DNA from: a virus
Lineage: Duplodnaviria; Heunggongvirae; Uroviricota; Caudoviricetes
IMG/VR virus record: IMGVR_UViG_2585427766_000001
DNA length: 34,738 nt
Reading direction: 5' to 3' (one strand)
The translations under genes were made by a program, and so were the position numbers. Of this stretch, positions 1,958-10,421 are shown in pieces. Below the pieces are notes generated by a model. It saw only the letters and a program-made list of their open reading frames with translations, was not told where the DNA came from and searched no databases. The stretch's first letter is position 1, and each line of letters opens with the position of its first letter.

Positions 1958-2223
1958 AATATCCCCTCCAGATTTTTGCTATCCAGCACCACTACGGTAA
2001 AGCCCAGCGCGCGCAGTCGTCCGTGTTCACGCAGTTGGCCGGCGCGTGGTGGCTTGCCGGGTGCTTTACATTCAACGAAAACGATACGACCACCGGGTAG
2101 CAGAACAATGCGATCTGGTACCGAGCGGCGACCGGGAGATATAAACTTAAAGGCCACTCCGCCAGCTTTTTTTACTTCAGCGACGAGGTGCTTTTCGATA
2201 AGGCTTTCACGTTCATAGGCCAT
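1930..2223 (-). CDS. VRR-NUC domain nuclease (PD-(D/E)XK superfamily)
   Basis: MAYERESLIEKHLVAEVKK...DRIVLLPGGRIVFVECKAPGKPPRAGQLREHGRLRALGFTVVVLDS; the E-x-K core and ~100-aa size fit VRR-NUC. Start taken at the internal Met that overlaps the upstream gene stop. Confidence 0.7.
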   Translation of the reverse strand: MAYERESLIEKHLVAEVKKAGGVAFKFISPGRRSVPDRIVLLPGGRIVFVECKAPGKPPRAGQLREHGRLRALGFTVVVLDSKNLEGILCGEPITTK

Positions 2224-2512
2224 CTGAATCCCACTCTTCAAAAAGCACATTCAATACCAGTTTCTCTGCCAACGCGTTTTCTGCACGTGCGCCGGCAGAG
2301 TACTCCCACTCTTTGAGCATATAAATCGTATCGGCACAGCGAAGCATTGCGAGGCAGATGTCCATGTACTGAGCCTGTGTCAAACCATCGGGTAAAGTTG
2401 CGGGGTTAAGCACAACATATCCCTTGTCCGTTAGCCTCTTTGCTGCGGAATGAAAGGCCGGGCGGTTAAATTGCTCGTAACCGCTCATCGGCCCGGCAAC
2501 GTAAACGATCAT
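2213..2512 (-). CDS. DUF4406 family protein (nucleoside 2-deoxyribosyltransferase-like fold)
   Basis: 99 aa starting MIVYVAGPMSGYEQFNRPAF, the typical DUF4406 N-terminus as I recall it. Its start overlaps the upstream stop by 4 nt. Confidence 0.6.
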   Translation of the reverse strand: MIVYVAGPMSGYEQFNRPAFHSAAKRLTDKGYVVLNPATLPDGLTQAQYMDICLAMLRCADTIYMLKEWEYSAGARAENALAEKLVLNVLFEEWDSDGL

Positions 2513-2724
2513 TCTTCGACCGCCTTACGCTTTTCACGCATATTCTGCATCAGGCAAAAATCAGATCTGCGTTCACTCCATTCCTGATTCAGTTCGTGAT
2601 GTGATTCGCGGTTGGCTTTTGCCCAGACCTTCGCTGCCCGGTCATATTCGCCGGATTGTTCAAGTCGCAAAGCCTCCCTTGCAGCCCTGTAATAAAGTGG
2701 ATTGTCCCGGTATTTAAATGACAT
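2509..2724 (-). CDS. Small hypothetical early protein (possibly ANR-like regulator)
   Basis: 71-aa ORF coupled between the DNA polymerase and DUF4406 genes; basic, helical. Family assignment from memory only. Confidence 0.45.
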   Translation of the reverse strand: MSFKYRDNPLYYRAAREALRLEQSGEYDRAAKVWAKANRESHHELNQEWSERRSDFCLMQNMREKRKAVEE

Positions 2725-2729
2725 AGGAG

Positions 2730-4793
2730 TTAATCCTTACGGTAGTGGTACGCCTCAAAACCGCCAGCGTTCAGTGGGATATCTGGCGCCCATTCGGGGT
2801 TAGTGGAGAGAAGCGCGGAAAGCGCTTTATCGTTGAAATCTTCTGTGTCAGGTGATTCGGTGATCACCTCGTCGTGTACCGTCAGCACAATGCTGTAACC
2901 GGCATCTTCGATAAGCGGCATGTTTCCGGCCAGAACGTCGCGGGCGGCCGCCTGGGTGACGTTCTCCACCAGCTTTCCGCCGTAGGTTTTGAGTCGTTGC
3001 CATTTACGCGAATAAGAGTTAACACCCATGTAGGTGATATTCCCTTGTTCGATAACCGGAGACGGGTAGCATACAGCGCGTCCGGATGGTAGCTGTATGC
3101 GCAGCCACGCGCCATCGCGGCGGATTTTAAGATAACCGCAATACAATGTTTTTTGCGGTGTGGCGATTGCTGTGCGGACGGTGCACTCCAGTTCGTACCA
3201 GAAATCACAGGTCGCGGGATGCGCCCGGCGCCAGAGACGTTTAAGTGAGTCGCAGGCGATAAATACCCGTTCAGAAAGCCCGTAGGTCGATTTACGTTTA
3301 ACCGATTCGTCGTACCAGCTTTTCGCCTCGCGGATAACATCGCGGGGAATGTTTGGCAGTGCGGCGTTCGCCAGCCCGTCGAGATCGAGACCGTAAACCA
3401 GAGCAAAAGTGATGAAAGCCGATACACCTCCTCCATAACCCAGACCGAGTTCCATGACTTTACCGATCTGACGCATGTGTTTATCAACATCATCTGGTGC
3501 AATATCGAAAGCTTTTGCATACGCCAGTTTATATAAGTCCGGACCCGTTCCGGCGTCGTACTCTCTGAATGCATTCAGTTTCCATTCTTCTCCCGCCAGC
3601 CATGCCAGCATACGGCCTTCAATGTTCGACAAGTCACTTACCACCAGCTTTTTGCCTGTTGGCGCGATAATGCAGCCACGTAACGCTGAACTGGTTAGTT
3701 CCATGATATTGTCAAACAGCAGGTCTGCACATCCGGCTTTCAGTGCTTCGATGCCTTCGTCTATTTGTTCCTGTTTTAGTGAAGGGCGGGGAAGGTTCTG
3801 GGGCTGGAATAGCCGTCCGGCCCAACGACCGGTACGTGACGCCCCGCAGAACTGTAGCGTACCGCGTAAGCGCCCGTCGTGGCTTACGCCTTTCATCAGT
3901 GCCTTGTATTTACTGGTGCTGGTAGTACTGGCCTGCAGGCGGATAGCCAGCAGTTCTTTCACGGCAGATGGTAAATCGGGGTCGGCAATACGACGTTCCA
4001 GAGTACTGCGTTGCATGTCTGGTAGCTCCACACCGTAGGATTCAACAATGTGCTTAATCAACGCGTCTCGTTGTGTGGCTGCCTGCACTTCGCCATCAGT
4101 CATTTCCTGTGTACGCTTTGCCAGGCGCTTTTGTTCCTGGTCTACCGCGTCGATCGCAGCGCGTGCGAGTTCCACGTCCATGCAGACGCCCCGGTCATTG
4201 ATCTGCTGATCACGATGCCAGAGCGCCAGTTCTGTCCCCTGATAATTCCACTTCGGCAGACGTTTATAGACTTCGCGCATTGCCTCGATATCCAGTCCGG
4301 CGTAAGCAACAAAGCGCCGCCATTCTTCCGGGTGGGTTTTGCTGGTGGCCCGGCGCAGTTTGCTGTTTTTCGGGCGTGGCTTACAGAACAGCTGGATCAG
4401 AGCTTTACCTTCTTTGTCCTTCGCTTTGTCTTGCGGGACGCCTAGTACTTCGCAGAGTTCCCCCAGAGCCCCCGGGAGACCGTGCGCCAGCGCCTGCACC
4501 ATCGTGTCGCGCCAACGTTCGACTGGCGGTGCCAGTCGCGGCATTGCATAACGCAGGACGGTGCGGTCGAAGTGAGAGTTATGAAAATAAAGCAGGGTTT
4601 CAGGGGCTGCGATTGCTTCGTATAAGCCGTGTGGAATACCACCACCGGCAGTGATATCCCATACGTTTACTGGCCCGTCGTTGATAGCCCATGCGAACAG
4701 CATCACTTCAACGCCTTCGGCATACGCATGGGTACCGTTCGTAATAGGGATTTCGCAATAGGTTTCCAGGTCGCCCCATAGTATATTGGACAT
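2730..4793 (-). CDS. Family A DNA polymerase with N-terminal 3'-5' exonuclease domain
   Basis: 687 aa. N-terminal WGDLETY (Exo I, D-x-E); polymerase motif B-like [16 protein letters not shown]; motif C LTVHDEV. Confidence 0.85.
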
Positions 4794-4839: not shown

Positions 4840-5469
4840 ATGCATATGATCCAATACTTGATTGACCATACAGAGCATCTGGAGAAAATAGCTGGATATA
4901 TTTTTTCATGTTTGATTGTTATGGGAGTCTGGATAAGAAAGATCATTTTTAATTATAAGTATAAAGAGCCTAAATATGTCAAGAAGTTAATTTTATATTT
5001 AGTTAAGTATGAACGTTATCTGGATAAGGAGGATAAGAGTGCCATAGAAAAAAGAATAAATGATAAAATTATTCGTGATGCGCTGAAATTGCAATCTTCT
5101 TATAACCGAAGTGATGTTATTTACATTTGCAATAGATTAGAAAAAAGACAGTATATAAATCAGGTGATTAAGCTTCAGAATTATATAGAGAAAGATAACG
5201 GAGTGTTTTTCATCAATGTTAATTTTTCAGGTTTTTTATTTATTATTAGTCGTCTGTTTTCCTTTCTGTGTTTTGTGCTGTTTATCCTTTTTTCTATTAT
5301 CTGCATTATTTCCATAGGGCAAAATGAAGGCCTTTTAAATTATCTTGTGTATATGGTTATGACAATAGTTTTAGAGACTGTTGGTTTTTGGATGTATGAT
5401 ACTTTCCCGTCTAAGAAGAAGATCTGTGAACTAAATAAAGAATTGAGGAAGATTAAGATTCCTGAGTGA
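4840..5469 (+). CDS. AT-rich hypothetical polytopic membrane protein (cargo gene)
   Basis: 209-aa ORF on the strand opposite to the surrounding operon. Hand count of three 60-nt lines gives about 27-32% G+C, against about 53% in a neighbouring polymerase line. One N-terminal hydrophobic helix (IAGYIFSCLIVMGVWI), a K/E/Y-rich segment, then C-terminal hydrophobic helices (FLFIISRLFSFLCFVLFILFSIICIISI, LVYMVMTIVLETVGFWMY). Confidence 0.6.
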   Translation: MHMIQYLIDHTEHLEKIAGYIFSCLIVMGVWIRKIIFNYKYKEPKYVKKLILYLVKYERYLDKEDKSAIEKRINDKIIRDALKLQSSYNRSDVIYICNRLEKRQYINQVIKLQNYIEKDNGVFFINVNFSGFLFIISRLFSFLCFVLFILFSIICIISIGQNEGLLNYLVYMVMTIVLETVGFWMYDTFPSKKKICELNKELRKIKIPE

Positions 5470-6085: not shown

Positions 6086-7387
6086 TCAGATGAGGTCTGC
6101 GGTTAGCGTATCGTCGGATACGTCGTCGAAATCATTTACAGGGTTGATATTGAGTGCGGGGCGTGGGTCTGACTCGGGAACGATGGTGGGTTTACCATCA
6201 GCTCGTGTTATCAGTGCCTCGACTTTTGACCAACGGCGCGGACTGGCCTTTTTGATAAGTTTTTCGGCTTTTGTGGGGCTAATAAGTTTAAAGTCGAATA
6301 CTTCTTCAGTTTTGTACCTGAACTGGTCCTTCAGAAGTGCGCGAGCTGCCTCTTCATCACTCCAGGCCCGGTTACCTTGTTTTCCTGTTACCAGTTTAAA
6401 CCCCGGTACCGGATGTCCGGCATTGAGTTCATTGTGAACCCGGTCTCGTACTGCCTTTAGCCAGGATTCAATAAAGTCGGCCTGGCTATAGATCTCCGCA
6501 AGCTGCTCAATGGTTAACAGAGGTACACGTGCGCTGGCATTGGAGATTATTTCGCTGACAGGCTTTGTCAGATCTTCAAAATCGCTGGCCGCTGTTTGTA
6601 AATGCTGCATTTTCTGGGCAGTGCAAATAGCTTTTGCTTTACAGAAGCGGCACTGTTTTTCTCCAGGTATGAAGTTTTCCAGCGGTAGTGTCTCAATGCC
6701 TTCGCATTCAGCAATATTGAGAACAAGGATCGCACTGGTTGCGGCCTCCAGTGCCCGTTCACCGAAAGACTGAAGTTCCTGTACGGTTAACGACCATTCT
6801 GAAACGTGGTTGAGCCTTGGCTGGTGAATAAATAATCTTACAGTCTCAAAGTCATACAGCATGCTGAATTGTTCGAGCGCACCCAGAGCATACAGTTGTA
6901 GTTGCTCATTTTGTTCTGCATCAATGCGGACGCCTTTGCCATATTTCAGGTCGTGGATTTGTAATTCGCTACCAGCAATGATTATGCCGTCGGCAGTTCC
7001 GAAAGATTCTTCCACACCCGTTATATGTGAGAAATCAACACGTTGTTCAACCAATAGTTCATTATTCTGTGCAAGAGTCCAGACCGTATCAACATACCGG
7101 CCAACGGCTTCGACCATTTCATCATCCACCTGTGGGCCAGATGTATCATTAGGATTTTCGCGAAGGGGGTATGAGCCGAGAAACATAGAAACATTGCATC
7201 CGGCGTAGTGTTCCGGGTAGCTTTGCCTGTTTCGTAGAACTTTTTCAGCAAGCGCGTGCGCTGCAGTGCCCTCGATTGCAAAAGTTGTTTCTTTATCCGG
7301 TTGTGTGGCCTCCAGCGCCAGACTTCCTGGGCAGCGCATCCATCGATGCGCTGATGATGGAGAAAGTTGTGCATGAACGTCTGGCAT
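6086..7387 (-). CDS. DUF2800 family PD-(D/E)XK nuclease (Cas4/RecB-like)
   Basis: N-terminal [15 protein letters not shown] signature; C-terminal Cys cluster [10 protein letters not shown]. Confidence 0.75.
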
Positions 7388-7389
7388 GA

Positions 7390-8292
7390 TTAACCCTCCA
7401 GTGCTTTTTCAGCCAGGGTGATTACTTCAGCGAGATTTTCATCCGTTACTTCACCAAGTTTCCTGGCTCCCTGTTTTTCCAGAATTGCAATAGCTTCTGC
7501 CCGGTAACCCCCTTTTGCTAACTGGAGGATCAACCCTTCAGCTTGTTTGCGTAGTGCCGCGAAATCAATTGTATGGTCATCTTTGGCGTCATGATTCTGG
7601 CTGGAATTTGCTGCGTCTCTGCGTGCAAATTCTTCTTGCAGCTGAAGGTACTCAACACGGTTGATCTCGATATGGCCTTTTTTCAGCATCTCGTTCAACT
7701 TGCGTAAGGTGTGGAGTTCACTGGCTGCTGTGCCGGATACATTTTTGGCGTAAAACGGCCCCGTGCGTTCTCCATCTTTGTTACTGGCCTTTTTCGGCTT
7801 AACTTCATCACGCCCATCCGCAGGTGCATCAAGTAGCTGCTCGGCAAAAACACGTCGCTCGCCGATGGTTGGCAGGTCGTCCCAGAACTTAAGGATGTTA
7901 CGGGACAGGTCCAGGAGAGCAGGTTTAAGCAGCGCCCTGGCTCGTTTGACGCCCTGCAATGCGCTGTCGAGAGCATCAATCTGAACTACTCGTTTATCGC
8001 CTTCAGCATCACGGTAGGCAACAGCACGTTGCAGCATGTCTTCTGTGATAGGGGTGGCTACCGGGTAGAAACCAGCCAGTGCGATAACGTCGCTGAACTC
8101 CAGATCATCCAGTGTCATTGCCGCTGACATATTTTCAGTTTCAGTTGCTGTATCCCGACATTCCTGCACTCGTGAAATCGTGTCAGGATGCATAACAATG
8201 CCTGATGCCATTGTGCGGATAAGACGTTCAAGCAGCGCATTATGTTGTGCCAGAAGTTGATTATTAAGTTCGAGACTGGTTTCTAAACTCAT
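7390..8292 (-). CDS. Hypothetical early-left protein
   Basis: 300-aa ORF coupled to its neighbours; acidic and helical; no motif I can name. Confidence 0.5.
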
Positions 8293-8471
8293 ACTGTGGT
8301 CCTCGCTACAAGGAGAATGAAAGTGATGATCAGACCGAGCGCAGTGGCAACGGCCAGACCGGTCATCAAATCGAAGTTTTTACGGCGATAACGGAGAACA
8401 TCGCGCCCCGTCAGTCGATGGAGGTATTCAGGTTTCATCGGTTGTATTCCTTTTTTCATATCGGGGAGCAC
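8289..8471 (-). CDS. Small hypothetical membrane protein, first gene of the leftward operon
   Basis: 60 aa: basic N-terminal half, then one hydrophobic helix LMTGLAVATALGLIITFILLVA. Stop overlaps the downstream start. Confidence 0.5.
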   Translation of the reverse strand: MLPDMKKGIQPMKPEYLHRLTGRDVLRYRRKNFDLMTGLAVATALGLIITFILLVARTTV

Positions 8472-8496
8472 GCTGTTGCGAGTGCGCTTTCAGACA

Positions 8497-8523
8497 TAAA
8501 AAAGCCCGTCACTTGAGGCGGGC
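8497..8523 (-). terminator. Intrinsic-terminator-like hairpin about 25 nt upstream of the leftward operon start
   Basis: Read on the minus strand: GCCCGCC-TCAAGT-GACGGGC followed by TTTTTT. Confidence 0.5.
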
Positions 8524-8662
8524 AAAGGCTACACACAGCAATTACTTGGATGTCAGCGAATGCCTGCTTTTAACCACGTCAGACGAGATGGCTCTCTCTG
8601 TACCCCTACAGCGAGAATTCGGCTAATATCTCTTTACCCCTATAGTTTTAGAGAGAATTAAG

Positions 8663-9187
8663 ATGTCTGAAGAAAAAGGACTTGTACGGCGTATAACTGA
8701 GGCGGCCACTAGTGCTGGTGGTGCTTTGAAAGGTGCTGTTGATTTAGCAAAAGAAGTTAATGCGTTGCAGGTGGATTACAATGTTAAAAGTAAAACTATC
8801 GATCTACTTGATAAACTAATTGATGCGCGTACTGGACAATTCGCACTAACGGAGCTTTTGAACGAAGCTAAACAGCGCATTGTTGAACTCGAATCCCTTC
8901 TGGAAAAGAAACAGGATTGGGATAGTGAGAAAATGAACTATGAAATGTACCACCCGATTACCAATACGGTGGTCTATGTACTGAAGCCTACTGACGATCC
9001 TGAGTTCAAGCCTCATTATCTTTGTACTACATGCTATGAGTCGGGTATGAAGTCTATACTTCAATACCATACTTCTAATGCCGCTTATAAAATTCTCAAG
9101 TGTCATAAATGCTCCGCTGAATATAAATTTCCCCGAAATATAGAAGTCAGTGGCAAAACTCCTGCACCGTTACAACCTGCCAGATGA
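8663..9187 (+). CDS. Hypothetical coiled-coil protein with C-terminal CxxC...CxxC zinc-ribbon (immunity-region cargo)
   Basis: 174 aa, convergent with cI. N-terminal heptad-like helices (LQVDYNVKSKTIDLLDKLIDA, AKQRIVELESLLEKKQDW); C-terminal LCTTCYESG...LKCHKCSAEY. Hand count of three lines gives about 37-47% G+C. Confidence 0.55.
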   Translation: MSEEKGLVRRITEAATSAGGALKGAVDLAKEVNALQVDYNVKSKTIDLLDKLIDARTGQFALTELLNEAKQRIVELESLLEKKQDWDSEKMNYEMYHPITNTVVYVLKPTDDPEFKPHYLCTTCYESGMKSILQYHTSNAAYKILKCHKCSAEYKFPRNIEVSGKTPAPLQPAR

Positions 9188-9280
9188 TTAGCAGTTCTCT
9201 TTGGTGGTGGTGTAGTGGTAGATGCTGAACTTCGGATTGACTCAATGGACTGATCTTCACCCCACCCCAAAAGGAACTAA

Positions 9281-9305
9281 GCGCCCCATCGTCGGGGCGT
9301 TTCAA
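9281..9305 (+). terminator. Intrinsic terminator downstream of 8663..9187
   Basis: GCGCCCC-ATCGTC-GGGGCG followed by TTT; about 95 nt past the stop. Confidence 0.5.
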
Positions 9306-9339
9306 CTTGCGTGACTTATCAGTTTGTCGCGGTGTTGTC

Positions 9340-9430
9340 CTCTACGCTTACCGTACGCATACGGACTCGGCGCTTACCTCGATCCCATCGGGTGCTATTT
9401 CGTTTTGCCAGGAGTACTGCGGCTTACCTG
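9340..9430. repeat. Three direct repeats of (G/A)CGCTTACC plus a small palindrome
   Basis: ACGCTTACCG (~9345), GCGCTTACCT (~9371), GGCTTACCT (~9421); palindrome CCGTACGCATACGG at ~9350-9363. The unit resembles lambda boxA (CGCTCTTA) but on the plus strand. Confidence 0.4.
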
Positions 9431-9477
9431 TCACGCGGTTCAGTTTGTTAAAGAGCCAGTATTAAAAAACGCATTAA

Positions 9478-9521
9478 TTATGCGATATCGTATTTATATG
9501 CGTTATGGGATTTTGTGTTAA
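9478..9521 (-). promoter_or_regulatory. Candidate leftward early promoter (PL-like) overlapped by operator-like repeats
   Basis: On the minus strand: TTAACA (-35, plus 9516-9521), 17-nt spacer, TATAAA (-10, plus 9493-9498). Two copies of TATGCG(A/T)TAT(C/G)G overlap it (TTATGCGATATCG ~9478; ATATGCGTTATGG ~9496); a third (TTATGCGTTATCG) lies in the cI-cro intergenic region. Confidence 0.45.
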
Positions 9522-9540
9522 TACTAAAATGAATTATTTT

Positions 9541-9575
9541 GCAAATAAGAAAACCGCCCTTGTGGAGAGCGGTTT
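9541..9575 (-). terminator. Intrinsic terminator of the repressor gene
   Basis: On the minus strand: AAACCGC-(11-nt loop)-GCGGTTT followed by TCTTATTTGC; about 30 nt past the cI stop. Confidence 0.55.
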
Positions 9576-9605
9576 GATCAGAAGTAAGTTATCAGACTGT
9601 AAAGG

Positions 9606-10280
9606 TTAGTACATACGTAGCGCGGATTTGGCGATCCCCGCCACGTAATGGATTTTTTCAATGTTTTCGCGTGGTACTCTGACTGGTGGATGATCTTCAT
9701 TTACAGACATTAGATGGAACAGGCCATCGCGTTCGAACAAGAAGGTTTTAACCATGACCTCACCTTCCCGGGTAACCACAAGTACTTCATCACCAGGAGT
9801 GTAGTCGTGGTTGGGTTCGACGATTACGAACTCCCCCTCTTTGATTCTAGGCATCATTGAATCACCAACACATTTCAGGGCGTATGCATCTTCATCCTTT
9901 GTCGGCCAGTATATGAAACCATCACTGCTACCTACTGAATATTGGGTGTCGCTCCAAAGTCCTCCAACGCCTAGCTGAGTGTTTCCCAAAACAGGTACTT
10001 TATTAAACCTAAGAGAAATATACGTTTTTATACCTGTCGCGTCCTCTTTCTCCATTTCTTGAAGGCTCCTTTCTGCCAAGTCTATTGGTGACACGTGGAA
10101 GTAGTCGGCGATCTGCTTTAACGTTGCGTATTTCGGATCTTTCACCTCTCCTGATACCAGCCTGTGTAGCGTTGGTTGGTTCAGCTGTAACCGACGTGCC
10201 AGCTCAGTTATCGAGCTTATCTTGGCTTTGTCCATCAGGTACTTGATGTTTTGAGAAAGGATATCGGTAGTATCAATCAT
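9606..10280 (-). CDS. cI: CI-like repressor (HTH_XRE + S24/LexA-type autopeptidase)
   Basis: N-terminal helix-turn-helix ISSITELARRLQLNQPTLHRLVSG; C-terminal S24 domain with catalytic Ser in CVGDSMMP and a downstream Lys (EVMVKTF). Divergent from a Cro-like gene. Confidence 0.85.
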   Translation of the reverse strand: MIDTTDILSQNIKYLMDKAKISSITELARRLQLNQPTLHRLVSGEVKDPKYATLKQIADYFHVSPIDLAERSLQEMEKEDATGIKTYISLRFNKVPVLGNTQLGVGGLWSDTQYSVGSSDGFIYWPTKDEDAYALKCVGDSMMPRIKEGEFVIVEPNHDYTPGDEVLVVTREGEVMVKTFLFERDGLFHLMSVNEDHPPVRVPRENIEKIHYVAGIAKSALRMY

Positions 10281-10421
10281 TTGGATTCATCCATGTTGTA
10301 TACAGGGACGGTGATTATGCGTTATCGGATATTTTAATCTAGGATGACATAGAATTGCTGTATTGCTGAGTAATCCGTTTTCGTATAAATTTGCGCTATA
10401 GACGAAAGTGGAAACTTAAAT
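10281..10421. promoter_or_regulatory. Divergent cI/cro promoter-operator region
   Basis: Rightward TTGCTG (10363-10368), 15-16 nt spacer, TATAAAT (10384-10390) ahead of cro. Leftward TATACA about 18 nt from the cI ATG (short leader). Operator-like TTATGCGTTATCGG at 10314-10327; tandem ATTGCTG x2 at 10354-10368. Confidence 0.55.

What the first reader, a model, noticed from the sequence alone, without database searches (positions are those of the whole stretch)
8663..9187. Convergent coiled-coil / zinc-ribbon gene in the immunity-region cargo slot
A 174-aa ORF sits on the plus strand between the leftward early genes and cI, the position occupied by rexAB or sieB-type cargo in lambdoid phages. 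Unlike those it is convergent with cI, with terminators from both sides between the two genes. It has heptad-like N-terminal helices and a C-terminal CxxC(n)CxxC ribbon. Leftward transcription from the candidate promoter near 9500 would run antisense through it, which suggests expression mainly in the repressed lysogen.
Basis: partly seen in the sequence, partly recalled or inferred. Interest (0 to 1): 0.65.

Follow-up and report, generated by a model that had tools for sequence, protein, structure and literature searches.

The report
Prophage Rip1 pore-forming defence gene
The ORF is real and belongs to the recently described Rip1 family of prophage proteins that kill an infected cell by forming a membrane pore around ring-shaped phage assembly proteins; here it sits behind the same promoter and antisense-RNA switch that phages P22 and lambda use for their sieB exclusion gene.

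Summary
The 174-aa ORF (8663-9187, +) is real, under purifying selection (dN/dS 0.09) and low in GC (41% vs 51%). It is a full-length homologue (48% identity, E=8e-45) of phage HK446 Rip1, solved in PDB 9oox bound to the T6 small terminase. An AlphaFold model matches only that structure (Foldseek E=3e-11). The four cysteines are invariant across the family. Rip1 (Patel et al. 2026, Nature) is a single-protein prophage defence that assembles a pore around ring-shaped phage proteins.

New here: the ~110 nt upstream of the gene are homologous to the P22/lambda sieB promoter and, on the opposite strand, to the P22 antisense RNA sas. The same module precedes Rip1, SieB or unknown genes in other phages. 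Covariation and wobble bias assign its conserved stem-loops to the antisense RNA. A cI-operator-flanked leftward promoter near 9500 and a nutL-like boxA would send early transcription antisense through the gene. This probably shuts Rip1 off on induction (inferred).

Verdict: a new member of a known family, with a possibly unreported regulatory link. Moderate interest.

The parts
8663..9187 (+). rip1 homologue CDS (174 aa): N-terminal amphipathic/helical region (about 1-92) and C-terminal beta domain with a 4-Cys ribbon (93-157)
   Evidence: ORF. phrog_1244 E=1.8e-43. PDB 9oox_L Rip1 E=8.4e-45 over residues 3-159. 9oox_L is identical to HK446 gp37, to which the ORF is 47.8% identical. AF2 mean pLDDT 78.8. 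Foldseek 9oox_M E=3.1e-11, probability 1.0. Four Cys invariant. dN/dS 0.093.
8599..8629 (+). sieB-type promoter for rip1: -35-like TGTACC (8599-8604), 19-nt spacer, -10 TAATAT (8624-8629); predicted mRNA start near 8636, giving a 5' UTR of about 27 nt
   Evidence: Homology to the promoter and RNA start site annotated in the curated P22 record BK000583. The -10 is TAnnnT in 18 of 18 aligned leaders at fixed spacing. The consensus scan does not detect it, and no transcript data exist for this locus.
8545..8667 (-). sas-like antisense RNA region, complementary to the rip1 start codon, 5' UTR and promoter; three conserved stem-loops
   Evidence: Aligns with the published P22 sas RNA sequence (PMC13397905 Table 2; alignment A7). 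Covariation: 88% of cells paired vs 26-39% in slid controls; 7 pairs changed on both sides, reached by 0 of 500 shuffles. Wobble bias of 18 vs 3 favours the minus-strand RNA. The ends are taken from P22 by homology, not measured here.
8498..8551 (-). RprA-like 3' segment with an intrinsic terminator (hairpin 8523-8504, U6 8503-8498), directly downstream of the sas-like region and upstream of the first leftward gene
   Evidence: Rfam RF00034 sub-threshold match, 45.5 bits vs gathering 70, E=7.5e-5; the 3' half is nearly identical to the consensus. Conserved in all sister prophages as the left boundary of the cassette.
8552..9280 (.). Variable cargo cassette (promoter/sas module, rip1 and its 3' UTR) that is swapped in sister prophages
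   Evidence: Alignment of the window with L009-L012 and with phage 689R2. Alternative contents are a 189-aa rip1 allele of 45% identity or unrelated minus-strand small ORFs.
9279..9302 (+). Hairpin downstream of rip1 (likely its terminator, with a weak U-tract); right boundary of the cassette
   Evidence: Fold of -16.5 kcal/mol, z = -2.26. Conserved in all relatives. Not called by the terminator scan.
9445..9456 (-). boxA-like sequence GCTCTTTAACAA (nutL-like) in the leftward leader
   Evidence: Single exact match in the window, 0.16 expected by chance. The core GCTCTTTAAC is identical to the boxA within P22's annotated nutL. The boxB resemblance is weak.
9479..9521 (-). PL-like early leftward promoter (-35 TTAACA 9521-9516, -10 TATAAA 9498-9493) overlapped by two tandem operator-like 18-mers (9479-9496, 9497-9514)
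   Evidence: Repeat family D1, with a third copy at 10316-10333 in the cI-cro intergenic region. Immunity-specific sequence begins at about 9460 in heteroimmune relatives. The hexamers were read by eye.
9551..9575 (-). Intrinsic terminator of the cI repressor gene
   Evidence: Terminator scan. Fold of -13.4 kcal/mol, z = -3.6.
9606..10280 (-). cI-type repressor (HTH plus S24 peptidase), convergent with rip1
   Evidence: Pfam PF00717 and PF13443; phrog_4.

Best explanation
The ORF encodes a Rip1-family ('ring interacting pore') antiphage protein carried as cargo by an E. coli prophage.

By homology to HK446 Rip1, the protein is made in the lysogen and is harmless alone. When an infecting phage produces a ring-shaped oligomer (small terminase or portal), the C-terminal 4-Cys domain binds around that ring. 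About 12 Rip1 subunits assemble, and their N-terminal amphipathic helices form a membrane pore. The pore kills or prematurely lyses the cell before progeny mature.

The gene is expressed from a sieB-type promoter (predicted mRNA start near 8636) that it shares with sieB of P22 and lambda.

On induction, or on infection by a phage carrying the same module, cI-controlled leftward early transcription from about 9490 runs antisense through rip1. It yields a sas-like structured antisense RNA covering the rip1 5' UTR and start codon, ending at the RprA-like terminator. This should block new Rip1 synthesis and so limit self-killing.

Shown here: family membership, fold, conserved residues, cassette nature, promoter/sas homology, and RNA covariation on the minus strand.

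Inferred: the defence phenotype and trigger of this particular allele, actual transcription, and the antisense shut-off.
For: Family and fold:
- phmmer against the PDB finds Rip1 9oox_L at E=8.4e-45, nearly full length.
- 9oox_L is HK446 gp37, 158 of 158 residues identical.
- Foldseek of the AF2 model finds only 9oox (E=3.1e-11, probability 1.0); the next hit has E above 1.
- C121, C124, C147, C150, Y93 and Y105 are invariant in 32 diverse homologues.
- The N-terminal 30 residues have the highest hydrophobic moment, and there is no transmembrane segment.

Published mechanism: review PMC13434031 section 5, summarising Patel et al. 2026.

Cargo behaviour:
- The exact allele occurs in 26 of 5426 complete E. 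coli genomes. Sister prophages carry a 45%-identical allele or unrelated inserts, independent of repressor type.
- GC is 41% against 51% for the window, and dN/dS is 0.09.

Orientation: the gene lies antisense to the lytic operon in HK446, JBD30, Pantoea and Edwardsiella prophages.

Regulatory module:
- The leader is homologous to P22 sas and the sieB promoter.
- The same leader precedes Rip1 in 20 of 28 viral contigs and SieB in 4.
- Covariation and minus-strand wobble bias.
- Operators, promoter and boxA for leftward transcription.
- Relatives carry minus-strand ORFs in the same slot.
Against: - No experiment exists on this allele. It is only 48% identical to HK446 Rip1 and 30% to the Pseudomonas protein, so trigger specificity is unknown.
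- I could not read the primary paper. The mechanism is taken from a review and from PDB titles.
- No transcript data exist. The rip1 promoter and the leftward promoter are not consensus matches.
- The origin of sas, whether read-through, processing or its own promoter, is unresolved.
- No conserved internal start that could give an Esc-like antidote. Antisense shut-off alone would not neutralise Rip1 protein already present.
- The boxA match alone is weakly significant: 15% of shuffles give at least one match.
- Zinc binding was not tested.
Confidence: 0.8

Rival explanations
1. A Rip1-fold protein that serves the prophage's own development and is not a defence. For example, it could interact with the phage's own terminase or portal ring to time lysis or packaging.
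For: Rip1 binds packaging-ring proteins. In Pseudomonas phages the gene lies between the small and large terminase genes. The window's prophage encodes its own small terminase and portal.
Against: - In every context examined the gene is on the strand opposite to the surrounding lytic operon.
- It is absent or swapped in otherwise near-identical prophages, so it is dispensable for growth.
- Here it uses the promoter of a lysogen-expressed exclusion gene.
- The review reports a defence phenotype with escape mutants.
Confidence: 0.05
2. A zinc-ribbon nucleic-acid-binding regulator of the immunity region, such as an antirepressor or transcription factor.
For: A CxxC...CxxC ribbon and a position next to cI. 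Weak sub-threshold similarities to zinc-finger families: DM domain E=0.13, ECs_2282 CxxC E=0.18.
Against: - No significant match to any regulator family.
- Strong full-length homology and fold match to Rip1 only.
- The gene does not co-vary with repressor type.
- The repressor has its own S24 autocleavage domain, so no antirepressor is required.
Confidence: 0.03
3. A functional Rip1 defence that is constitutively expressed. The upstream homology to sieB/sas would be only an inherited promoter, with no working antisense control at this locus. Self-protection would rest entirely on the prophage's own ring proteins not triggering it.
For: - No consensus minus-strand promoter for a sas RNA.
- No Esc analogue.
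- The plus-strand hairpin at 9279-9302 and the RprA-like terminator could impede leftward read-through.
- The Pseudomonas Rip1 locus lacks the module altogether.
Against: - Compensatory changes and a wobble bias specific to the minus strand show selection on the antisense RNA structure across Rip1-linked copies.
- A boxA/nutL-like site suggests antiterminated leftward transcription.
- Relatives place minus-strand ORFs in the slot with no evident promoter of their own.
Confidence: 0.2

Closest known systems
Rip1 (ring interacting pore 1) of Escherichia phage HK446 (gp37; PDB 9oox, complex with the T6 small terminase) and of Pseudomonas aeruginosa JBD-type prophages (Patel et al. 2026, Nature 651:1060)
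   Same: Full-length homology: 48% to HK446 and 30% to JBD30 gp30. Same predicted fold, invariant 4-Cys motif, N-terminal amphipathic helices, about 165-175 aa. A single gene in a prophage, on the strand opposite to the neighbouring lytic genes.
   Different: - It is a diverged allele, and its trigger is untested.
- The phage backbone differs (DNA polymerase A / DUF2800 / VapE replication module).
- The position differs: between the first leftward gene and cI, convergent with cI. In HK446 the gene lies between N and a ral-like gene, and in Pseudomonas phages between the small and large terminase genes.
- It has a C-terminal tail of about 15 extra residues.
SieB / Esc / sas superinfection-exclusion module of phages P22 and lambda (Ranade & Poteete 1993; curated P22 record BK000583)
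   Same: Homologous promoter, short 5' UTR and antisense-RNA region (82.6% identity over 85 nt to P22). The same antisense placement relative to early leftward transcription. The same slot logic: lysogen-expressed exclusion cargo.
   Different: - The protein is unrelated to SieB: no PF14163 match, whereas alternative cargo behind the same leader does match.
- There is no conserved internal start equivalent to Esc.
- Here the sas-like region runs into an RprA-like terminator that is absent from P22.
RexAB of phage lambda
   Same: Immunity-region cargo expressed in the lysogen that aborts infection by compromising the membrane (established knowledge).
   Different: RexAB is a two-protein system co-transcribed with cI. 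There is no sequence or fold similarity, and the trigger differs.
Other defences that sense packaging proteins (Avs1-3 sense the large terminase; TerI senses the small terminase)
   Same: They recognise conserved phage DNA-packaging proteins by direct binding (PMC13601566).
   Different: Those are STAND NTPases or other architectures with separate effector domains. Rip1 is a small protein that combines sensor and pore.

Membership tests
Rip1 (ring interacting pore 1) family | Significant full-length sequence homology to an experimentally characterised Rip1 | tested here: met
   phmmer E=8.4e-45, query 3-159 vs chain 3-160 of 9oox_L. 9oox_L is HK446 gp37; the ORF is 47.8% identical to it. It is 29.9% identical to JBD30 gp30.
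Rip1 (ring interacting pore 1) family | Fold: N-terminal helical region plus a C-terminal ring-binding domain as in PDB 9oox | tested here: met
   AF2 model, mean pLDDT 78.8. Foldseek against the PDB: 9oox_M E=3.1e-11, probability 1.00, TM(target) 0.61, 121 columns; no other hit below E=1. The first 30 residues have pLDDT of only about 60.
Rip1 (ring interacting pore 1) family | N-terminal amphipathic helix (the pore-forming part, according to the review) | tested here: met
   Hydrophobic moment of 0.38-0.49 over residues 1-30, the highest in the protein. Maximum Kyte-Doolittle 19-residue mean of 0.67, so no constitutive transmembrane helix. Helices at 2-16 and 21-34 in the model.
Rip1 (ring interacting pore 1) family | Conserved 4-Cys (CxxC...CxxC) motif in the C-terminal domain | tested here: met
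   C121, C124, C147 and C150 are invariant in 32 sequences down to 22% identity. Metal binding itself was not tested.
Rip1 (ring interacting pore 1) family | Single-gene system carried by prophages | tested here: met
   Prophage context at yfhL in E. coli. Lone plus-strand gene between minus-strand neighbours. The same holds in HK446, JBD30, Pantoea and Edwardsiella.
Rip1 (ring interacting pore 1) family | Binds oligomeric ring proteins (small terminase or portal) and forms a roughly 12-mer pore | not testable with these tools
   Needs biochemistry or a multimer prediction. The prophage's own small terminase shows no sequence match to any 9oox chain at E<=0.01.
Rip1 (ring interacting pore 1) family | Confers phage resistance, with escape mutations in the small terminase or portal | not testable with these tools
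   Phenotype known only for homologues.
sieB promoter / sas antisense regulatory module (P22, lambda) | Sequence homology of the upstream region to the P22 sieB promoter, RNA start and sas RNA | tested here: met
   blastn 82.6% over 85 nt, E=1e-13, overlapping the annotated sieB promoter and RNA start in BK000583. Alignment to the published sas sequence.
sieB promoter / sas antisense regulatory module (P22, lambda) | Conserved -10 element at fixed distance from the mRNA start | tested here: met
   TAnnnT in 18 of 18 leaders. The window has TAATAT at 8624-8629, 7 nt before the predicted start.
sieB promoter / sas antisense regulatory module (P22, lambda) | Structured antisense RNA under selection | tested here: met
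   7 pairs with compensatory changes, reached by 0 of 500 shuffles; 88% paired vs 26-39% slid. Wobble bias of 18 vs 3 favours the minus strand. Only 18 related sequences, so the support is moderate.
sieB promoter / sas antisense regulatory module (P22, lambda) | Truncated in-frame antidote (Esc) from an internal start | tested here: not met
   M91 and M95 of the window protein are not conserved in the family alignment. No Esc analogue is evident.
sieB promoter / sas antisense regulatory module (P22, lambda) | Antisense RNA is actually produced and switches translation | not testable with these tools
   No transcript data. No consensus minus-strand promoter in rip1 or in the 5' end of P22 sieB. 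A leftward promoter with operators and boxA lies upstream.
SieB protein family (PF14163) | Match to the SieB profile and an N-terminal transmembrane segment | tested here: not met
   No PF14163 hit for the ORF. No transmembrane segment. SieB proteins found behind the same leader do match.
RprA sRNA (RF00034), for the minus-strand element at 8494-8607 | Score at or above the Rfam gathering threshold over the full model | tested here: not met
   45.5 bits vs 70. Only the 3' 55 nt or so resemble RprA. The 5' half of the match is the sas-like region.

The most novel reading that the evidence does not exclude
Rip1 has been plugged into the sieB/sas switch. The roughly 110-nt sieB promoter plus sas antisense module would be a portable expression-and-immunity platform for exclusion cargo: Rip1, SieB and at least three uncharacterised proteins. 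Early leftward transcription would produce a structured antisense RNA, here fused to an RprA-like terminator, that blocks Rip1 translation on induction. This would give the prophage self-immunity to its own suicide pore. Any incoming phage carrying a sas homologue could use that RNA as a trans-acting anti-defence key against resident Rip1 or SieB.
Probability: 0.4. Interest if true: 0.6.

Novelty: new member of a known kind. Interest (0 to 1): 0.38.

Why it matters
The protein is explained by a family published in 2026, so it is not a new kind of system.

Three points add value:
- It shows that Rip1 is polymorphic cargo. In one E. coli prophage lineage, two alleles only 45% identical, or unrelated genes, sit in otherwise 97%-identical flanks. 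The C-terminal (sensor) half is the more diverged. This pattern is expected if ring-protein specificity diversifies, and it offers natural allele pairs for mapping that specificity.
- It links Rip1 to the sieB/sas antisense switch. That suggests a testable answer to how a prophage avoids being killed by its own late-protein sensor when it is induced.
- The shared promoter/sas module can serve as bait for finding further exclusion genes. Several uncharacterised ORFs already turned up behind it.

Tried and rejected
- **Family libraries:** Pfam, NCBIfam and PADLOC (2023) gave no significant family for the ORF. Only PHROGs (unknown function) and the PDB sequence search were informative.
- **Primary paper:** Patel et al. 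could not be retrieved by DOI or PubMed id. A search for papers linking Rip1 with sieB returned only unrelated human RIP1 hits.
- **Empty slots:** I first took the shorter slots in L011 and L012 to be empty. Alignment showed other inserts with minus-strand ORFs.
- **RprA hit:** I first considered the Rfam match a full RprA-like sRNA. Only its 3' 55 nt or so are RprA-like and part of the prophage backbone; the 5' half is the sas-like region.
- **mRNA leader hairpin:** I proposed that the conserved stems form an mRNA leader whose third hairpin sequesters the Shine-Dalgarno sequence. I rejected this because the homologous P22 mRNA starts downstream of the 5' arm and the wobble bias favours the minus strand.
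- **The TACCCCTACAG repeats:** by eye I considered them as sigma-54 or sigma-32 promoter elements or LexA boxes. Spacing and sequence do not fit (CTGT-N6-ACAG against CTGT-N8-ACAG for LexA).
- **RNAalifold:** it preferred an invariant GCCUG/CAGGC stem, which cannot be tested by covariation.
- **Locus search:** The search for related loci failed with the diverse alignment A2. A closer alignment gave only 6 loci.
- **Esc-like start:** I looked for an internal start analogous to Esc and found none conserved.
- **Own small terminase:** it matches SF6/SPP1-type small terminases in the PDB, not the T6 protein in 9oox. This says nothing decisive about self-triggering.

Full report
**1. The observation**

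The window has an ATG-initiated ORF at 8663-9187 on the plus strand encoding 174 aa. It lies between a leftward block of early genes and a leftward cI-type repressor at 9606-10280. The early block comprises a 49-60-aa membrane protein ending at 8289, a 300-aa protein, a DUF2800 exonuclease and further genes. The repressor has an HTH plus an S24 peptidase domain. The gene is therefore convergent with cI.

The CxxC...CxxC motif is present at C121/C124 and C147/C150.

A minus-strand intrinsic terminator for cI lies at 9575-9551. A strong plus-strand hairpin lies at 9279-9302, at -16.5 kcal/mol. Only three U follow its stem, so the scan did not call it a terminator.

The ORF is real coding sequence. 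Against an Edwardsiella orthologue (76% amino-acid identity) dN/dS is 0.093. The ORF has 41% GC against 51% for the window.

**2. What the protein is**

Pfam, NCBIfam and PADLOC (2023) give nothing significant. PHROGs places the protein in phrog_1244, of unknown function.

A sequence search of the PDB gives one strong hit, chain L of 9oox, 'ring interacting pore 1 (Rip1)'. The E-value is 8.4e-45, covering residues 3-159 of the query. The residues of 9oox_L shown in that alignment are identical, 158 of 158, to gp37 of Escherichia phage HK446. The window protein is 47.8% identical to gp37.

An AlphaFold2 model built from a 16-sequence alignment has a mean pLDDT of 78.8. It shows helices at 2-16, 21-34 and 39-92 and a beta-rich domain at 93-157. 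Foldseek against the PDB finds only 9oox, described as 'HK446 Rip1 in complex with the T6 small terminase'. That match has E=3.1e-11, probability 1.00 and 47% identity. The next hit has E above 1.

An exhaustive profile-free search finds 1697 clusters at E<=1e-3. In a 32-sequence alignment reaching 22% identity, the four Cys plus Y93 and Y105 are invariant.

Residues 1-30 have the highest helical hydrophobic moment in the protein, and there is no transmembrane segment.

**3. What Rip1 does (from the literature, not tested here)**

The primary paper (Patel et al. 2026, Nature 651:1060) is not held in the library. A review (PMC13434031, section 5) summarises it as follows:
- Rip1 is a prophage-encoded single protein that is not toxic alone.
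- Escape mutants map to the portal in Pseudomonas phages and to the small terminase in E. coli phages.
- Cryo-EM shows 12 Rip1 subunits around an 11-mer small-terminase ring.
- The N-terminal half forms an amphipathic helix structure and the C-terminal half contacts the ring.
- The complex forms a pore that releases dye from liposomes and lyses infected cells prematurely.
- Homologues are widespread in proteobacterial prophages.

Two other papers agree in outline.

**4. Genomic context**

The window is an E. coli prophage integrated next to yfhL. It has a DNA polymerase A / DUF2815 / DUF2800 / VapE replication module and Q-type late control.

The 1.1-kb region containing the ORF (8480-9600) is at least 98.6% identical in 26 of 5426 complete E. 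coli genomes. Another 122 genomes match only parts of that region.

Alignment of sister prophages defines a variable cassette at about 8552-9280 between conserved flanks. Its contents are one of the following:
- this 174-aa allele;
- a 189-aa Rip1 allele only 45% identical, in flanks that are 97% identical;
- unrelated sequence with small ORFs on the minus strand.

These states occur with at least three repressor types. So the gene is accessory cargo and is not tied to immunity specificity.

Between the two alleles the C-terminal half is more diverged (33-39% identity) than the N-terminal half (49-57%).

**5. Orientation is a family trait**

| Phage or prophage | Position of the Rip1 gene |
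|---|---|
| HK446 | Between N and a ral-like gene, opposite to the PL operon |
| Pantoea prophage | Convergent with N |
| Edwardsiella prophage | Convergent with an S24 repressor, as in the window |
| Pseudomonas phage JBD30 | Between a small-terminase-like gene and the large terminase, opposite to both |

**6. The upstream region is the sieB promoter / sas module**

About 110 nt upstream of the ATG are conserved in several settings. These are the two E. coli alleles, HK446, and Pantoea, Photorhabdus and Arsenophonus prophages, with a variant form in Providencia.

A pattern scan of viral contigs found 28 copies. The ORF about 102 nt downstream of the leader is:
- Rip1-family in 20 contigs;
- SieB (PF14163) in 4;
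- a small hydrophobic protein in 2;
- a 166-aa phrog_3983 protein in 1;
- a probable chance match in 1.

blastn finds the leader in 136 phage records, including lambda and P22.

In the curated P22 record, the match overlies the annotated sieB promoter and the sieB RNA start site. That start is 31 nt before the sieB ATG. The record also shows sieB lying antisense inside the PL operon, downstream of gene 24.

The reverse complement of the leader aligns with the published sequence of the P22 antisense RNA sas (PMC13397905 Table 2). According to reviews, sas pairs with sieB mRNA and switches translation from SieB to its antidote Esc.

By homology, the window's rip1 promoter has a -35-like TGTACC at 8599-8604 and a -10 TAATAT at 8624-8629. 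The mRNA start falls near 8636. The -10 is TAnnnT in all 18 aligned leaders.

**7. The conserved structure belongs to the antisense RNA**

On an 18-sequence alignment, the proposed helices pair in 88% of cells, against 26-39% when the 3' partners are slid. Seven pairs show changes on both sides, and none of 500 shuffles reached that count.

Mismatches that would be G·U on the minus-strand RNA outnumber those that would be G·U on the plus strand by 18 to 3. Most of the stems also lie upstream of the predicted mRNA start. The element under selection is therefore the sas-like RNA.

A third stem-loop has arms of very different sequence in different phages, but individually these stems are only weakly better than shuffled sequence.

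**8. Where antisense transcription would come from**

- Two tandem 18-nt operator-like repeats (9479-9514) recur in the cI-cro intergenic region. They overlap a minus-strand promoter read by eye: TTAACA, 17 nt, TATAAA.
- Sequence becomes immunity-specific at about 9460 in heteroimmune relatives.
- About 30 nt downstream of the predicted start lies GCTCTTTAACAA, the only such match in the window. Its core is identical to the boxA within P22's annotated nutL.
- No consensus minus-strand promoter lies inside rip1 or inside the 5' end of P22 sieB.

Leftward early transcripts would therefore cross rip1 antisense and pass the sas-like region. They would then meet an intrinsic terminator (hairpin 8523-8504, U6 at 8503-8498) just before the first leftward gene.

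That terminator and the 30 nt before it are nearly identical to the 3' end of the host sRNA RprA. This produced a sub-threshold Rfam match of 45.5 bits against a gathering score of 70. The piece is a backbone feature of this prophage family.

All of section 8 is inference from sequence. No transcript data were available.

**9. Verdict**

The gene is a new member of the Rip1 family.

What may be new is its coupling to the sieB/sas switch, together with the cassette polymorphism. I could not establish whether the primary paper already covers these.

The main gap for the self-immunity model is the absence of an Esc-like antidote.

Noticed in passing
window 8498-8551 (minus strand): The last 55 nt or so before the first leftward gene are nearly identical to the 3' end of the host sRNA RprA (AAUUGCUGUGUGUAGCCUUUGCCCG...CGGGCUUUUUU), terminator included. 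The Rfam match is sub-threshold at 45.5 of 70 bits. The piece is conserved in all sister prophages whatever their cargo, so a phage transcript may end in an RprA-like module.
   Followed up: partly
window 9306-9460 (minus-strand sense): The leader of about 155 nt between the putative leftward promoter and the cassette is almost invariant even in heteroimmune relatives. It contains a boxA-like site and three GGTAAGC(G/C) repeats, has no Rfam match, and its folding energy is not unusual. It could be a nutL-type or other antitermination element.
   Followed up: partly
L024 and L028 (105-111 aa, hydrophobic), L030 (166 aa, phrog_3983), each about 100 nt downstream of the leader match listed: Uncharacterised ORFs sit behind the same sieB-type promoter/sas module at the same offset as Rip1 and SieB. 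None matches PADLOC. They are candidates for further exclusion genes.
   Followed up: partly
L012 1576-1770 (minus) and L011 1587-1796 (minus): In sister prophages the slot holds a 64-aa Cys-rich ORF (CPAC...CPEC) or a 69-aa ORF in the leftward orientation. Neither has a family match in PADLOC or PHROGs.
   Followed up: partly
L014 (Providencia alcalifaciens), about 4888-5003: In this copy of the leader both TACCCCTACAG repeats have changed together to CCGCAACGTAA. The first hairpin changed on both sides (AACCAC/GTGGTT to ACCTCA/TGAGGT) while keeping its loop. The concerted change of the two repeats is unexplained.
   Followed up: no
L005 4406-5938 (Edwardsiella ictaluri prophage): A 510-aa protein with a faint ORC/CDC6-like AAA signature lies directly upstream of the rip1 orthologue on the same strand. 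This copy lacks the sieB/sas leader, so it may be a two-gene cargo unit.
   Followed up: no
window 8289-8438 (minus): The first gene of the leftward operon encodes a 49-aa protein (phrog_11981) with a C-terminal hydrophobic helix, conserved in all relatives. The longer 60-aa GTG-start reading is probably an over-extension.
   Followed up: no
L002 (ETEC H10407), locus 2017-3411 and 6240-8314: In H10407 the same prophage carries a frameshifted DNA polymerase and an SNF2 gene with an internal stop, yet the rip1 region is 99.8% identical. The defence gene may outlive the prophage's ability to replicate.
   Followed up: no
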